NCBI RefSeq assembly: GCF_001677475.2
Contig: NZ_CP015229.1
Length of the DNA stretch: 64,000 bases
Direction: 5' to 3' (one strand)
Source: Escherichia coli
GTDB taxonomy: Bacteria > Pseudomonadota > Gammaproteobacteria > Enterobacterales > Enterobacteriaceae
In this document: positions 6,453 to 64,000 of the stretch, piece by piece
Position numbering within the stretch: the first letter of the stretch is position 1
How the letters are laid out: each line of letters begins with the position of its first letter
Notes under the pieces: generated by a model
The model's database searches: none
What the model was told of the DNA's origin: nothing
What the model saw: the letters and a program-made list of their open reading frames with translations, nothing else
Translations under genes and position numbers: made by a program

Positions 6453-6794
6453 ATGGCATATCTGGTGGCAGTAACCGCCTGCGTAAGCGGCGTGGCGCAT
6501 ACTTATATGGCGGCGGAACGGCTGGAAAAGTTGTGCCAGTTAGAGAAGTGGGGCGTCAGCATTGAAACTCAGGGCGCGCTGGGAACGGAGAATCGTTTAG
6601 CGGACGAGGATATCCGCCGGGCGGATGTTGCGCTGCTGATTACGGATATCGAGCTTGCCGGTGCCGAGCGATTTGAACATTGCCGCTACGTGCAATGCAG
6701 CATCTACGCTTTCCTGCGTGAGCCGCAGCGGGTGATGAGCGCGGTACGCAAAGTGCTTTCTGCGCCGCAGCAAACCCATCTTATTCTGGAGTAG
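6453..6794 (+). CDS. frwD: PTS fructose-like IIB component 2
   Basis: ORF-track 6369..6794 trimmed to ATG 6453 (MAYLVAVTACVSGVAHTYMAAE..), 113 aa; paralog of frwB. Confidence 0.9.
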   Translation: MAYLVAVTACVSGVAHTYMAAERLEKLCQLEKWGVSIETQGALGTENRLADEDIRRADVALLITDIELAGAERFEHCRYVQCSIYAFLREPQRVMSAVRKVLSAPQQTHLILE

Positions 6795-45800: not shown

Positions 45801-46880
45801 GTTGAAGCTGAGAAGCTCGACAAACTGCCGCGCGATCGCTGGCTGGAGCTGGGCCTGACCGACGAAGAGAAACAAAATCAGCTGGAACAGCTGGCTGAGC
45901 AGTATGACGAACTGAAACACGAGTTCGAGAAGAAACTCGAAGCGAAACGCCGCAAAATCACCCAGGGCGACGATCTGGCACCGGGCGTGCTGAAGATTGT
46001 TAAGGTATATCTGGCGGTTAAACGCCGTATCCAGCCTGGTGACAAGATGGCAGGTCGTCACGGTAACAAGGGTGTAATTTCTAAGATCAACCCGATCGAA
46101 GATATGCCTTACGATGAAAACGGTACGCCGGTAGACATCGTACTGAACCCGCTGGGCGTACCGTCTCGTATGAACATCGGTCAGATCCTCGAAACCCACC
46201 TGGGTATGGCTGCGAAAGGTATCGGCGACAAGATCAACGCCATGCTGAAACAGCAGCAAGAAGTCGCGAAACTGCGCGAATTCATCCAGCGTGCTTACGA
46301 TCTGGGCGCTGACGTTCGTCAGAAAGTTGACCTGAGTACCTTCAGCGATGAAGAAGTTATGCGTCTGGCTGAAAACCTGCGCAAAGGTATGCCAATCGCA
46401 ACGCCGGTCTTCGACGGTGCGAAAGAAGCAGAAATTAAAGAGCTGCTGAAACTTGGCGACCTGCCGACTTCTGGTCAGATCCGCCTGTACGACGGTCGCA
46501 CTGGTGAACAGTTCGAACGTCCGGTAACCGTTGGTTACATGTACATGCTGAAACTGAACCACCTGGTCGACGACAAGATGCACGCGCGTTCCACCGGTTC
46601 TTACAGCCTGGTTACTCAGCAGCCGCTGGGTGGTAAGGCACAGTTCGGTGGTCAGCGTTTCGGGGAGATGGAAGTGTGGGCGCTGGAAGCATACGGCGCA
46701 GCATACACCCTGCAGGAAATGCTCACCGTTAAGTCTGATGACGTGAACGGTCGTACCAAGATGTATAAAAACATCGTGGACGGCAACCATCAGATGGAGC
46801 CGGGCATGCCAGAATCCTTCAACGTATTGTTGAAAGAGATTCGTTCGCTGGGTATCAACATCGAACTGGAAGACGAGTAA
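42852..46880 (+). CDS. rpoB: DNA-directed RNA polymerase beta subunit
   Basis: ORF-track 42819..46880 trimmed to Met at 42852 ([31 protein letters not shown]..), 1342 aa; rifampicin cluster I reads the wild-type [32 protein letters not shown]. Confidence 0.98.
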
Positions 46881-61949: not shown

Positions 61950-62375
61950 TTACCAGTGGCCCATACCCATATGACCGCCACCACCGCAGCCGCCGTAGCC
62001 CATGCCCATTCCGGCTCCGCGCGGAATACCCGCTTCAGCCATCGCAATATCCCGTTTCACCCGTAACTCATCTAACGACTGACGCAAATTCTCCATCTCT
62101 TTGGCGACCGCGTTAATTTTGCTGCTATCCGGTGGGTTCGCGGCTAACAGGGCATTGTATTCATAACGCTTCGTCACCAGTTGCTGTTGCAGTGCGCTGC
62201 TTTGAGCGTAAAAGTCATTATGGATTTTCTGCCACGCTGTCTGTTGTTCGCTGGTCAAAGGCGCGGCATTTTGCTGCCACATACCGTGTCCGCCGTGAGC
62301 AAATGCAGATGTCGATCCCATCGCCATTGCTGAAAGCGCCATCATTACCAGGGCAATTTTCGTGTTCCGTTTCAT
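61950..62375 (-). CDS. zraP: Periplasmic zinc-responsive envelope-stress protein ZraP
   Basis: ORF-track 61950..62516 trimmed to Met at 62375 (MKRNTKIALVMMALSAMAMGSTSAFA..), 141 aa; signal peptide; Gly/His/Met-rich C-terminus. Confidence 0.92.
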   Translation of the reverse strand: MKRNTKIALVMMALSAMAMGSTSAFAHGGHGMWQQNAAPLTSEQQTAWQKIHNDFYAQSSALQQQLVTKRYEYNALLAANPPDSSKINAVAKEMENLRQSLDELRVKRDIAMAEAGIPRGAGMGMGYGGCGGGGHMGMGHW

Positions 62376-62409
62376 GGTTAATCCTCCAGTGGTTGTCTTA
62401 CTTCGGGTA

Positions 62410-62427
62410 TTGCATCTTCCGTGCCAA
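62410..62427 (-). promoter_or_regulatory. Sigma-54 (-24/-12) promoter of zraP
   Basis: Minus strand reads TTGGCACGGAAGATGCAA (GG..N10..GC), about 35 bp upstream of the zraP ATG. Confidence 0.8.
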
Positions 62428-62468
62428 CGATGAAACGCTGATATGACGGGTAATCTGGCATGATAAAC

Positions 62469-62515
62469 GAGTAAAAATGACTCGCCTGCTGCGGGTAGCG
62501 AGTCATTTTTACTCA
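62469..62515. promoter_or_regulatory. ZraR enhancer-binding palindrome
   Basis: Perfect 17-bp inverted repeat GAGTAAAAATGACTCGC .. GCGAGTCATTTTTACTC between the divergent sigma-54 promoters. Confidence 0.8.
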
Positions 62516-62565
62516 TTGAAACTTAAGCCTTTGTGTTACAGCGCAGGGTAAGCGCTGATAAAAGA

Positions 62566-62581
62566 TGGCATGATTTCTGCT
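62566..62581 (+). promoter_or_regulatory. Sigma-54 (-24/-12) promoter of zraSR
   Basis: TGGCATGATTTCTGCT about 30 bp upstream of the zraS start. Confidence 0.75.
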
Positions 62582-62612
62582 GTCAGAAAGGGATGAGCAG
62601 GCAAAGAAGAAG

Positions 62613-63989
62613 ATGCGTTTTATGCAACGTTCTAAAGACTCCTTAGCTAAATGGTTAAGCGCGATCCTCCCCGTGGTCATTGTTGGGCTGGTGGGGCTGT
62701 TTGCGGTGACTGTGATTCGCGATTATGGGCGCGAGACTGCCGCCGCCAGACAAACGCTGCTGGAAAAAGGCAGTGTACTTATCCGTGCTCTCGAATCCGG
62801 CTCGCGCGTCGGCATGGGGATGCGCATGCATCATGCGCAGCAGCAGGCATTACTGGAAGAAATGGCCGGGCAGCCTGGTGTACGTTGGTTTGCGGTCACG
62901 GATGAACAAGGAACAATCGTGATGCATAGCAACTCCGGCATGGTGGGAAAACAGCTTTATTCCCCGCAGGAAATGCAGCAGTTACATCCGGGAGATGAAG
63001 AAGCGTGGCGGCGGATCGATAGCGCAGACGGCGAGCCTGTTCTGGAAATTTATCGCCAGTTTCAACCGATGTTTGCTGCTGGAATGCACCGGATGCGCCA
63101 TATGCAGCAGTATGCCGCGACACCACAAGCAATTTTCATCGCTTTCGACGCCAGTAATATTGTGAGTGCCGAAGATCGTGAGCAGAGAAACACCCTGATT
63201 ATCCTTTTCGCCCTGGCGACGGTCTTGCTGGCAAGCGTATTGTCATTCTTCTGGTATCGCCGCTATCTGCGCTCGCGCCAGCTTCTACAAGATGAAATGA
63301 AGCGCAAAGAGAAGCTGGTGGCGCTGGGGCATCTTGCGGCAGGCGTTGCCCACGAAATCCGTAACCCACTTTCCTCGATTAAAGGACTGGCGAAATACTT
63401 TGCCGAGCGCGCGCCTGCAGGGGGAGAAGCGCATCAACTGGCGCAGGTGATGGCGAAAGAGGCCGACCGTTTAAACCGCGTGGTAAGCGAGTTGCTGGAA
63501 CTGGTTAAGCCAACGCATCTGGCTTTGCAGGCGGTGGATCTCAACACGCTGATTAACCACTCATTACAGCTGGTAAGCCAGGATGCAAACAGCCGGGAGA
63601 TCCAGTTACGCTTTACCGCCAACGACACATTACCGGAAATTCAGGCCGATCCGGACAGGCTGACTCAGGTCCTGTTGAATCTCTATCTCAATGCTATTCA
63701 GGCGATTGGTCAGCATGGCGTGATTAGCGTGACGGCCAGCGAAAGCGGCGCGGGCGTGAAAATTAGCGTTACCGACAGCGGTAAGGGAATTGCGGCAGAT
63801 CAGCTTGAAGCCATCTTCACCCCGTACTTCACCACCAAAGCCGAAGGCACCGGACTGGGGCTGGCGGTCGTGCATAATATTGTTGAACAACACGGTGGTA
63901 CAATTCAGGTCGCAAGCCAGGAGGGAAAAGGCGCAACGTTCACCCTCTGGCTTCCGGTCAATATTACGCGTAAGGACCCACAAGGATGA
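62613..63989 (+). CDS. zraS: Sensor histidine kinase ZraS
   Basis: 458-aa ORF; two TM segments flanking a periplasmic domain; H-box HLAAGVAHEIRNPL; G-boxes in the ATPase domain. Confidence 0.93.
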   Translation: MRFMQRSKDSLAKWLSAILPVVIVGLVGLFAVTVIRDYGRETAAARQTLLEKGSVLIRALESGSRVGMGMRMHHAQQQALLEEMAGQPGVRWFAVTDEQGTIVMHSNSGMVGKQLYSPQEMQQLHPGDEEAWRRIDSADGEPVLEIYRQFQPMFAAGMHRMRHMQQYAATPQAIFIAFDASNIVSAEDREQRNTLIILFALATVLLASVLSFFWYRRYLRSRQLLQDEMKRKEKLVALGHLAAGVAHEIRNPLSSIKGLAKYFAERAPAGGEAHQLAQVMAKEADRLNRVVSELLELVKPTHLALQAVDLNTLINHSLQLVSQDANSREIQLRFTANDTLPEIQADPDRLTQVLLNLYLNAIQAIGQHGVISVTASESGAGVKISVTDSGKGIAADQLEAIFTPYFTTKAEGTGLGLAVVHNIVEQHGGTIQVASQEGKGATFTLWLPVNITRKDPQG

Positions 63990-64000
63990 CGCACGATAAT
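63986..64000 (+). CDS. zraR: Sigma-54-dependent response regulator ZraR, first 5 codons only (runs off window end)
   Basis: ATGACGCACGATAAT (MTHDN) overlapping the zraS stop as ATGA; identity from context. Confidence 0.6.

What the first reader, a model, noticed from the sequence alone, without database searches (positions are those of the whole stretch)
62376..62612. Divergent sigma-54 promoters flanking a perfect 17-bp ZraR palindrome
The zraP-zraS spacer contains back-to-back -24/-12 elements (TTGGCACGGAAGATGCAA on the minus strand for zraP; TGGCATGATTTCTGCT on the plus strand for zraSR). Between them lies a perfect inverted repeat GAGTAAAAATGACTCGC / GCGAGTCATTTTTACTC. This is a textbook enhancer-dependent architecture that is fully legible in raw sequence.
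Basis: partly seen in the sequence, partly recalled or inferred. Interest (0 to 1): 0.3.

Follow-up and report, generated by a model that had tools for sequence, protein, structure and literature searches.

The report
Known zraP/zraSR divergent sigma-54 control region
This is the well-studied E. coli control region between zraP and zraSR, where two outward-facing sigma-54 promoters share one central ZraR enhancer made of two mirror-image binding boxes; it is real but ordinary.

Summary
Window 62376-62612 is the 237-bp zraP/zraS spacer and is 100% identical to E. coli K-12 MG1655.

- **Promoters:** both quoted -24/-12 elements are present on the stated strands. They are the exact sequences under the published sigma-54 ChIP-seq peaks OS38 and OS39.
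- **Inverted repeat:** it is perfect and is the longest in the 64-kb window. No arm longer than 12 nt appeared in 2000 shuffles. It is not a "17-bp palindrome". It has two 17-nt arms (62469-62485 and 62498-62514) separated by 12 bp.
- **Box structure:** each arm is itself a dyad, GRGT-N7-ACYC. The enhancer is best read as two ZraR dimer boxes with centres 31 bp apart.
- **ZraR binding:** the strongest published ZraR ChIP-exo peak maps to window 62473-62505, inside the repeat. In a zraR knockout under zinc, zraP falls by log2 12.7 and zraS by log2 3.2.
- **Conservation:** both promoters, both boxes, their mirror orientation and their spacing are kept in six enterobacterial genera. The linker sequence is free. 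The arms show no covariation, which argues against an RNA hairpin.

Small additions from this work: promoter distances are nearly fixed at 72-77 bp, Escherichia has lost about one helical turn (11 bp) on the zraP side, and no IHF consensus is present.

Verdict: already known, low interest. Transcription start sites remain predicted, not checked here.

The parts
61950..62375 (-). zraP coding sequence (141 aa periplasmic ZraP). The true start is the ATG at 62375. The 188-aa ORF that runs to 62516 is an over-extension.
   Evidence: ORFs. (NF008584 equivalog, 274 bits, full length). (K-12 b4002 has the same boundaries).
62383..62387 (-). zraP ribosome-binding site, GGAGG on the minus strand, 7 nt upstream of the ATG.
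   Evidence: Read directly. The CTCC core of the block (CCTCC in E. coli, TCTCC or CCTCA in some genomes) is kept in all aligned genomes.
62410..62427 (-). zraP sigma-54 promoter TTGGCACGGAAGATGCAA, with -24 GG at 62425-62424 and -12 GC at 62413-62412. Predicted start site about 62400, giving a 25-nt leader.
   Evidence: Identical to the motif of sigma-54 ChIP-seq peak OS38 (FAT 39, PSSM 12.3, predicted start 25 nt from zraP). Salmonella ChIP-chip site TGGCACGGAAGATGCAAG. Nearly invariant in 11 genomes and about 30 metagenome loci.
62456..62464 (+). Second copy of TGGCATGAT, the -24 half of the zraS promoter, without a -12 GC. Probably not functional.
   Evidence: direct repeat D3. GA at the -12 position. 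Not conserved outside E. coli.
62468..62484 (.). ZraR box 1, CGAGTAAAAATGACTCG, a perfect 5+7+5 dyad centred at 62476.
   Evidence: GAGTAAAAATGAC and the following C-G are invariant in 11 genomes from 6 genera. It lies under ZraR ChIP-exo peak_9.
62485..62498 (.). Its length is constrained but its sequence is free.
   Evidence: 12 nt in all 11 genomes, sequence unconserved. (gap between 11-nt cores is 20, 21 or 22 nt in all but one of the zra-linked metagenome loci; L102 has an 11-nt gap from a 9-bp linker deletion).
62499..62515 (.). ZraR box 2, CGAGTCATTTTTACTCA, centred at 62507.
   Evidence: GTC.TTTTTAC is invariant apart from one A-to-G change in E. albertii. It is partly under ChIP-exo peak_9.
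62530..62549 (.). Conserved block of unknown role, TTTGTGT (62530-62536) and CAGGGT (62544-62549), between box 2 and the zraS promoter.
   Evidence: Invariant in Escherichia and most Citrobacter. It decays in Salmonella and Kosakonia. No factor is assigned.
62565..62581 (+). zraSR sigma-54 promoter ATGGCATGATTTCTGCT, with -24 GG at 62567-62568 and -12 GC at 62579-62580. Predicted start site about 62592, giving a 21-nt leader.
   Evidence: Top PWM score in the window. Identical to the motif of sigma-54 ChIP-seq peak OS39 (FAT 9, PSSM 11.4, predicted start 21 nt from zraS). Salmonella site TGGCATGATCTCTGCTTA. Essentially invariant across taxa.
62613..63989 (+). zraS coding sequence (458-aa sensor histidine kinase).
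   Evidence: (NF007688, 888 bits)..
63986..64000 (+). First 15 nt of zraR (ATGACGCACGATAAT). Its ATG overlaps the zraS stop codon (ATGA). The gene runs off the window.
   Evidence: (K-12 zraR starts 4 nt before the zraS end). (ZraR has Response_reg, Sigma54_activat and HTH_8 domains).

Best explanation
The spacer is the shared control region of the E. coli ZraPSR envelope-stress and zinc-responsive system.

**Layout.** Two sigma-54 (-24/-12) promoters face outwards, one for zraP on the minus strand and one for zraSR on the plus strand. RNA polymerase with sigma-54 sits on both as a closed complex that cannot fire unaided. Midway between them is one enhancer, about 92 bp from the predicted zraP start and about 100 bp from the predicted zraS start. 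It has two ZraR boxes, G-R-G-T-AAAAATG-A-C-Y-C, in mirror-image orientation, with centres 31 bp (about three helical turns) apart.

**Shown.**
- Sigma-54 occupies both promoters in vivo.
- ZraR occupies the repeat.
- Both units depend on ZraR under zinc.
- The elements and their geometry are conserved.

**Inferred by analogy with NtrC at glnAp2 and NorR at norV.**
- Each box binds one ZraR dimer through its Fis-type HTH.
- Phosphorylation by ZraS drives assembly of a hexameric AAA+ ring on the two boxes.
- The intervening DNA loops so that the ring contacts sigma-54 at either promoter.
- ATP hydrolysis then opens the promoter.

Because the enhancer has two-fold symmetry, it presents the same face to both promoters. 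The result is zinc- and envelope-stress-induced ZraP, together with positive autoregulation of zraSR.
For: **Identity.** The flanking genes are ZraP and ZraS equivalogs. The spacer is 100% identical to K-12. The locus is present in 5419 of 5426 complete E. coli genomes.

**Promoters.**
- GG-N10-GC is present on the correct strands.
- PWM ranks are first and third of about 128,000 positions.
- A divergent pair of this strength occurred in 0 of 1000 shuffles.
- The motifs are identical to sigma-54 ChIP-seq sites OS38 and OS39.
- RpoN holoenzyme gSELEX gives a peak in this spacer.
- Salmonella ChIP-chip sites and sigma-54-dependent expression have been reported.
- No sigma-70-like promoter is found in 62300-62700.

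**Enhancer.**
- The perfect 17-nt arms are far beyond chance.
- ZraR ChIP-exo peak_9 (signal/noise 73) maps to window 62473-62505. Its centre, 62489, is 2.5 bp from the repeat centre.
- ZraR gSELEX: 81 of 86 clones carry this spacer.
- In a zraR knockout under ZnCl2, zraP falls by log2 12.7 and zraS by log2 3.2.
- A review citing the original 2001 study reports that HydG (ZraR) binds this intergenic region when a phosphoryl donor is present.

**Anatomy and conservation.**
- Both boxes, their mirror orientation and the 12-nt linker length are kept in 11 genomes of 6 genera, while the linker sequence is free.
- Box variation is confined to the mirror-related positions 2 (A/G) and 14 (T/C), apart from one A-to-G change at position 6 of box 2 in E. 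albertii.
- Box-to-promoter distances are nearly fixed.

**Activator.** zraR follows zraS and has receiver, sigma-54-interaction and HTH_8 domains. The ZraR AAA+/DNA-binding fragment has a solved structure, PDB 1OJL, with six chains.
Against: - Transcription start sites were not available here. Those used are predictions (19 bp downstream of the motif centre). At the time of that paper EcoCyc listed both promoters as predicted rather than confirmed.
- The original footprint study (Leonhartsberger et al. 2001, J Mol Biol 307:93) is not held. Base-level assignment of ZraR contacts therefore rests on ChIP-exo resolution and conservation.
- A 2016 review lists the ZraR enhancer consensus as not known.
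- The stoichiometry (one dimer per box, hexamer on DNA) and the looping step are inferred by analogy only.
- The invariant centre AAAAATG is asymmetric, which a simple symmetric-dimer model does not explain.
- A second ZraR ChIP-exo peak over the zraP start codon (window 62360-62385) is unexplained.
Confidence: 0.93

Rival explanations
1. The 46-bp repeat is one large palindrome. Each 17-nt arm is a half-site read asymmetrically by a single ZraR oligomer, and the internal GRGT/ACYC symmetry of each arm is incidental.
For: The 7-bp centre of each box (AAAAATG) is asymmetric yet invariant. The two boxes are always in mirror orientation in all 11 genomes and in every zra-linked metagenome locus. 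The inner flank CG is invariant while its outer dyad partner varies (C/T).
Against: Each box has perfect terminal self-complementarity (CGAGT/ACTCG in box 1). The variable positions are, with one exception, the mirror-related positions 2 and 14. The linker length varies between 20 and 22 nt across clades, which is easier to reconcile with two separate sites. The related activator NorR uses GT-N7-AC dyads, the same core as these boxes. From general knowledge, NtrC uses 17-bp dyads. The two HTH motifs of one dimer cannot span 31 bp.
Confidence: 0.12
2. The repeat acts at the RNA level as a transcribed hairpin, such as a terminator, attenuator or small RNA, rather than as a protein-binding DNA site.
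For: If transcribed it would fold very stably: -29.2 kcal/mol, z = -7.9 against shuffles.
Against: It lies upstream of both predicted start sites, so neither sigma-54 promoter transcribes it. No T-run or terminator-like site is found. There is no Rfam match above noise. Twelve of 17 arm pairs never vary, and the variable ones break pairing in 3-4 of 11 genomes. Covariation is no better than shuffles, with 415-454 of 500 shuffles at least as high. The conservation is of primary sequence, and ZraR ChIP-exo maps to the DNA here.
Confidence: 0.02
3. The -24/-12 matches are incidental, and zraP and zraSR are really driven by sigma-70-type promoters, with the repeat acting as a classical activator or repressor operator.
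For: The loose sigma-54 consensus is common by chance (44 matches against 41 expected). Single PWM scores of 15-18 bits also occur in some shuffled 64-kb windows.
Against: No sigma-70-like promoter is found in the region. Sigma-54 is bound at both sites in vivo, at exactly these motifs. Expression is sigma-54 dependent in Salmonella. The 16-17-nt elements are invariant across genera, including their non-consensus spacer bases. The cognate regulator is a sigma-54 activator.
Confidence: 0.02

Closest known systems
E. coli zraP-zraSR (hydHG) regulatory region, as described by Leonhartsberger et al. 2001 (J Mol Biol 307:93) and later genome-wide studies
   Same: It is this very locus, 100% identical to K-12. 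It has divergent sigma-54 promoters, ZraR binding in the spacer and zinc- and ZraR-dependent expression. From memory, unverified because the paper is not held, the 2001 abstract describes the HydG site as two inverted repeats separated by a 14-bp spacer. That matches the two 17-bp dyads 62468-62484 and 62499-62515, which are 14 bp apart.
   Different: Nothing of substance.
NtrC enhancer at glnAp2 (two strong dyad sites upstream of a sigma-54 promoter)
   Same: A response-regulator activator of the same family. It has two dyad-symmetric sites about three helical turns apart, roughly 100 bp upstream of a -24/-12 promoter. The details of NtrC site spacing come from general knowledge and were not tested here.
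   Different: The box sequence differs. At zra one enhancer serves two divergent promoters and is itself two-fold symmetric.
NorR enhancer at norR-norVW
   Same: A divergent arrangement in which the regulator's own gene is on one side. The boxes have a GT-N7-AC core, and the ZraR box G-R-GT-AAAAATG-AC-Y-C contains that same core. NorR, like ZraR, is a single-target regulator in gSELEX.
   Different: NorR needs three sites and IHF. The zra spacer has only two boxes, and no IHF consensus at one mismatch or fewer. NorR is not a two-component response regulator.

Membership tests
Sigma-54 (-24/-12) promoter | GG and GC dinucleotides exactly 10 nt apart within a TGGCAY-N5-(T)TGCW context | tested here: met
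   Both sites match TGGCAYN6TGCW. With a leave-out PWM they score 17.8 and 15.4 bits, ranks 1 and 3 in the window.
Sigma-54 (-24/-12) promoter | Correct orientation and a short distance upstream of the gene it serves | tested here: met
   The predicted starts lie 25 nt (zraP) and 21 nt (zraS) upstream of the start codons. A divergent pair of this kind occurred in 0 of 1000 shuffles.
Sigma-54 (-24/-12) promoter | Occupied by sigma-54 holoenzyme | tested here: met
   Published data were mapped onto the window, which is identical to K-12. ChIP-seq peaks OS38 and OS39 carry exactly these motifs. RpoN gSELEX gives a peak in the spacer. No new experiment was done.
Sigma-54 (-24/-12) promoter | Transcription starts about 12 nt downstream of the GC element and requires rpoN | not testable with these tools
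   No start-site data could be retrieved. Sigma-54-dependent expression is reported only for Salmonella.
Bacterial enhancer (UAS) for an NtrC-family activator | Dyad-symmetric binding sites roughly 70-150 bp upstream of the promoter | tested here: met
   There are two GRGT-N7-ACYC dyads. Their centres lie 64 bp (zraP) and 73 bp (zraS) from the nearest -12 C, and the enhancer centre lies about 92 and about 100 bp from the predicted starts.
Bacterial enhancer (UAS) for an NtrC-family activator | Cognate activator with a sigma-54 interaction domain and an HTH, encoded in the system | tested here: met
   zraR lies immediately downstream of zraS. It has Response_reg, Sigma54_activat and HTH_8 domains. 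The same gene order is found in five other genera.
Bacterial enhancer (UAS) for an NtrC-family activator | The activator occupies the site | tested here: met
   The published ZraR ChIP-exo peak_9 maps to window 62473-62505, inside the repeat. gSELEX selects the spacer. The resolution is about 30 bp, and no base-level footprint was available.
Bacterial enhancer (UAS) for an NtrC-family activator | Transcription of the flanking units depends on the activator | tested here: met
   Published RNA-seq of a zraR knockout against wild type in ZnCl2 gives zraP log2 -12.7 and zraS log2 -3.2.
Bacterial enhancer (UAS) for an NtrC-family activator | Purifying selection on the sites and on their spacing | tested here: met
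   The boxes are near-invariant and the linker sequence is free. Box spacing is 31 bp in 11 genomes and 31-33 bp in the metagenome loci. Promoter distances are 72-77 bp.
IHF-assisted sigma-54 promoter | An IHF consensus (WATCAANNNNTTR) between the enhancer and the promoter | tested here: not met
   No match with one mismatch or fewer inside 62376-62612. This does not exclude a degenerate site or intrinsic bending.
Intrinsic terminator or structured RNA | A hairpin followed by a T-run, or pairing supported by covariation, or an Rfam family match | tested here: not met
   No terminator-like site, no Rfam match above noise and no covariation above shuffles.

The most novel reading that the evidence does not exclude
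The zra enhancer may be a rigid, helically phased module that works without IHF.

- Two ZraR boxes are kept in mirror orientation, each with an invariant, asymmetric A5-tract centre, about three helical turns apart.
- Each box sits at a near-fixed 72-77 bp from its promoter's -12 element across enterobacteria.
- The length changes tolerated between boxes and promoters are roughly whole turns: about 11 bp lost on the zraP side in Escherichia and about 9 bp lost on the zraS side in one metagenome locus.

This would mean that face-of-helix alignment and intrinsic A-tract bending replace an architectural protein. It would also mean that the same symmetric ring serves both promoters.

A related lead: a box pair closely matching the zra consensus (one core position differs) sits next to a different kinase/activator pair, only 37% identical to ZraR, in locus L045. 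The box specificity may therefore predate the zra locus.
Probability: 0.35. Interest if true: 0.3.

Novelty: already known. Interest (0 to 1): 0.1.

Why it matters
It matters little as a discovery. Its value is as a positive control. A divergent sigma-54 promoter pair with a central enhancer can be recognised by eye and confirmed with a PWM, shuffles, phylogenetic footprinting and published ChIP data.

The comparative work adds modest detail that specialists could use.
- A box consensus, GRGTAAAAATGACYC, where at least one review lists the ZraR site as not known.
- Strictly conserved mirror orientation of the two boxes.
- Near-fixed enhancer-to-promoter distances, with changes in roughly whole helical turns.
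- No IHF consensus in the spacer.

These points are relevant to people who build zraP-based zinc or lead biosensors, or who study how one enhancer serves two promoters.

Tried and rejected
- **Loose sigma-54 consensus.** With up to 2 mismatches it gave 44 matches against 41 expected, so it does not discriminate. It was replaced by a stricter pattern, a leave-out PWM and a pair test.
- **Other strong sigma-54-like matches in the window.** Examples are 6523-6539 (minus strand) and 45976-45991 (plus strand, inside rpoB-like coding sequence). None appears in the published ChIP-seq tables. They were treated as chance.
- **IHF site.** None at one mismatch or fewer in the spacer.
- **Sigma-70 promoter or intrinsic terminator.** None found.
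- **RNA family or hairpin reading.** Only noise-level Rfam hits (a plant miRNA and a snoRNA), and no covariation.
- **A third ZraR box.** I looked 31 bp either side of the pair by inspection and found nothing resembling GRGT-N7-ACYC. Searching the box at up to 3 mismatches in the window gives only chance-level extras.
- **The original 2001 paper and any quotation of its footprint.** Not held. Transcription start site literature was also not found.
- **The search for related loci with ZraP.** It reached only Escherichia and Citrobacter. Salmonella, Kosakonia, [Enterobacter] lignolyticus, C. rodentium and C. freundii were added through homologue look-ups.
- **The metagenome pattern scan.** It also pulled in unrelated palindromes, especially a gap-24 family from human-gut samples with no zra genes. 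These were discarded.

Full report
**What is at the coordinates**

Window 62376-62612 is the 237-bp spacer between two divergent genes. On the minus strand, 61950-62375 encodes a 141-aa protein that matches the ZraP equivalog NF008584 over its full length (274 bits). On the plus strand, 62613-63989 encodes a 458-aa protein that matches the ZraS equivalog NF007688 (888 bits). The last 15 nt of the window are the start of zraR, whose ATG overlaps the zraS stop codon.

The locus is found in 5420 of 5426 complete E. coli genomes. The spacer is 100% identical to K-12 MG1655 NC_000913.3 4201689-4201925. Published K-12 data can therefore be mapped by adding 4,139,313 to window coordinates.

**Checking the observation**

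- TTGGCACGGAAGATGCAA lies on the minus strand at 62427->62410.
- TGGCATGATTTCTGCT lies on the plus strand at 62566-62581.
- GAGTAAAAATGACTCGC lies at 62469-62485.
- Its exact reverse complement lies at 62498-62514.

The inverted repeat is far beyond chance. It is the longest perfect repeat with a loop of 40 nt or less in the 64-kb window. No arm longer than 12 nt appeared in 2000 dinucleotide-preserving shuffles of the spacer.

The promoter matches needed more care. A loose consensus is uninformative (44 matches against 41 expected). With TGGCAYN6TGCW, two of only three matches in the window are these sites. A PWM built from 40 other published sigma-54 sites ranks them first and third. A divergent pair of at least 15 bits, 80-300 bp apart, occurred in 0 of 1000 shuffles.

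Two points of wording need correction. The repeat is not a 17-bp palindrome but two 17-nt arms separated by 12 bp. The promoters are not back-to-back, since their -24 elements are 141 bp apart with the repeat between them.

**Published evidence mapped onto the window**

Sigma-54 binding:
- Sigma-54 ChIP-seq in E. coli lists peak OS38 (motif TTGGCACGGAAGATGCA, minus strand, zraP, predicted start 25 nt from the gene).
- It also lists peak OS39 (ATGGCATGATTTCTGCT, plus strand, zraS, predicted start 21 nt from the gene). Both come from PMC4591121.
- These predictions correspond to window positions of about 62400 and 62592.
- RpoN holoenzyme gSELEX also selects this spacer (PMC8743547).
- In Salmonella the orthologous sites are bound in ChIP-chip, and the genes are sigma-54 dependent (PMC3844500).

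ZraR binding and dependence:
- gSELEX gives this spacer as the single strong target, with 81 of 86 clones (PMC8249747).
- ChIP-exo peak_9 (signal/noise 73) spans K-12 4201786-4201818, which is window 62473-62505. That lies inside the repeat, and its centre is 2.5 bp from the repeat centre (PMC7657598 Data Set S2).
- In the same study, deleting zraR under 1 mM ZnCl2 lowers zraP by log2 12.7 and zraS by log2 3.2.
- A review citing the original 2001 work states that HydG (ZraR) binds this intergenic region when a phosphoryl donor is present.

The 2001 paper itself is not held. My recollection that its abstract describes two inverted repeats separated by a 14-bp spacer is unverified.

**Anatomy of the enhancer**

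Each arm has its own dyad symmetry. Box 1 is CGAGT-AAAAATG-ACTCG (62468-62484). Box 2 is CGAGT-CATTTTT-ACTCA (62499-62515). The boxes are 14 bp apart and their centres are 31 bp apart. This fits the recalled 2001 description.

I aligned the spacers of 11 genomes from 6 genera: Escherichia (3 species), Citrobacter (5), Salmonella, Kosakonia and [Enterobacter] lignolyticus. The phylogenetic footprint is clean.
- Both promoters are near-invariant.
- GAGTAAAAATGAC(T/C)CG and G(A/G)GTCATTTTTAC(T/C)C are near-invariant.
- The linker is always 12 nt long, but its sequence is unconserved.

With one exception (an A-to-G change at position 6 of box 2 in E. albertii), box variation is confined to positions 2 (A/G) and 14 (T/C). 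These are mirror-related positions, as expected for a dyad read by a dimer. The consensus is GRGTAAAAATGACYC. Its GT-N7-AC core is the same as the published NorR box.

The asymmetric A-tract centre is invariant, and the two boxes are always in mirror orientation. The enhancer as a whole is therefore two-fold symmetric and presents the same face to both promoters.

**Geometry**

In the 11 genomes the box centres are always 31 bp apart. Box 2 lies 72-73 bp from the zraS -12 C. Box 1 lies 75 bp from the zraP -12 C, except in Escherichia, where it is 63-64 bp. That is a loss of about 11 bp, or one helical turn.

I ran a metagenome scan for the two 11-nt cores with any gap of 10-30 nt. The zra-linked loci it returned have gaps of 20, 21 or 22 nt, which correspond to centre-to-centre spacings of 31-33 bp. 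Their zraS-side distance is 72-73 bp and their zraP-side distance is 73-77 bp.

Two metagenome loci are exceptions. One is about 9 bp shorter on the zraS side. The other has a 9-bp deletion in the linker.

No IHF consensus with one mismatch or fewer lies in the spacer.

**Rivals**

- **RNA hairpin.** This is unlikely. The repeat lies upstream of both predicted starts. There is no T-run and no Rfam match above noise. Twelve of 17 arm pairs never vary, and the variable ones break pairing in 3-4 of 11 genomes. Covariation is no better than shuffles. The high folding stability is a trivial consequence of a perfect repeat.
- **Sigma-70 control.** There is no sigma-70-like promoter, and sigma-54 is bound in vivo.
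- **One large palindrome read asymmetrically.** This is the only live alternative and is a matter of detail. The invariant asymmetric centres favour it. The internal dyads, the mirrored variable positions, the variable linker length and the NorR/NtrC precedents argue against it.

**Mechanism**

Shown:
- sigma-54 occupies both promoters;
- ZraR occupies the repeat;
- both units depend on ZraR under zinc;
- the elements and their geometry are under purifying selection;
- ZraR has receiver, AAA+ sigma-54-interaction and Fis-type HTH domains, and its AAA+/DNA-binding fragment has a solved structure, PDB 1OJL, with six chains.

Inferred from established knowledge of NtrC-family activators:
- one dimer binds per box;
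- ZraS-dependent phosphorylation drives hexamer assembly on the two boxes;
- DNA looping brings the ring to either closed complex;
- ATP hydrolysis opens the promoter.

The result is induced ZraP and positive autoregulation of zraSR.

**Limits**

Transcription start sites are predicted, not measured. At the time of PMC4591121, EcoCyc still classed both promoters as predicted. No base-level footprint was accessible. A 2016 review lists the ZraR enhancer consensus as not known.

**Verdict**

It is already known. The comparative details are incremental: the box consensus, the mirror orientation, the near-fixed distances with whole-turn changes, and the lack of an IHF consensus. Interest is low.

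Noticed in passing
window 62456-62464 (+): A second exact copy of TGGCATGAT, the -24 half of the zraS promoter, sits 4 nt upstream of ZraR box 1. It has GA instead of GC at the -12 position. It is not conserved outside E. coli (E. whittamii and E. albertii differ), so it is probably a chance or decaying element rather than a third sigma-54 site.
   Followed up: partly
window 62530-62549: A conserved block, TTTGTGT and CAGGGT(TA), lies between ZraR box 2 and the zraS promoter, at about -62 to -43 from the predicted zraS start. It is invariant in Escherichia and most Citrobacter and decays in Salmonella and Kosakonia. There is no counterpart on the zraP side and no factor is assigned.
   Followed up: partly
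window 62428-62467 (zraP promoter to box 1), compared with L007-L016: Escherichia species have 63-64 bp between the box 1 centre and the zraP -12 C. Citrobacter, Salmonella, Kosakonia and [Enterobacter] lignolyticus have 75 bp. This is a lineage-specific loss of about 11 bp (one helical turn) in otherwise unconserved DNA. Metagenome locus L128 shows a similar loss of about 9 bp on the zraS side.
   Followed up: yes
window 62360-62385: The published ZraR ChIP-exo data contain a second peak (peak_8, signal/noise 34, K-12 4201673-4201698) over the zraP start codon and ribosome-binding site, at about +15 to +40 from the predicted start, where there is no ZraR box. It may reflect looped contact with the promoter complex or a high-transcription artefact.
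   Followed up: no
L045 291-332 (contig Ga0207913_1000646): A near-identical box pair, GAGTAAAAATGACTC then GTGTCATTTTTACTC (one core position differs from GRGT), with the same 20-nt core gap, lies immediately after the stop codon of an activator only 37% identical to ZraR. That activator follows a histidine kinase 27% identical to ZraS. The pair is about 111 bp upstream of a weak sigma-54-like element (TGGCTCGGGTTTTGTA, with -12 GT as in pspA) and a small membrane-protein gene. No zraP is present. The ZraR-type box may be used by another two-component system.
   Followed up: partly
L018, L019, L022 and about 40 other human-gut metagenome loci: A different, very abundant perfect palindrome shares the same 11-nt cores with a 24-nt gap (GTGGATGTAAAAATGACGAAAAAAAACGATCGTTTCTTTTCGTCATTTTTACACCACA). 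It has no zra genes nearby, is unrelated to this finding and was not identified.
   Followed up: no
window 61950-62516 (-); L012 350-1936 (-): Over-extended gene calls swallow the regulatory region. The mechanical zraP ORF runs 188 aa, through the promoter and both boxes. Public ZraP clusters of 174-186 aa exist. In one Salmonella genome zraS is called at 528 aa, reaching to within 64 bp of zraP. One O157:H7 record annotates a hypothetical protein over the enhancer.
   Followed up: partly
window 6523-6539 (-) and 45976-45991 (+): These are other strong sigma-54-like matches. CTGGCACAACTTTTCCA (15.7 bits, second best in the window) lies in an intergenic gap and points into the 3' end of a convergent ORF. 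TGGCACCGGGCGTGCT lies inside rpoB-like coding sequence. Neither appears in the published sigma-54 ChIP-seq tables.
   Followed up: partly
L102 1459-1491: A Salmonella-like zra locus from a metagenome has only 11 nt between the box cores instead of 20. This is a 9-bp deletion between short direct repeats (ATGACYCGC) that would put the boxes on different helical faces. It could be a natural enhancer mutant or an assembly error.
   Followed up: no
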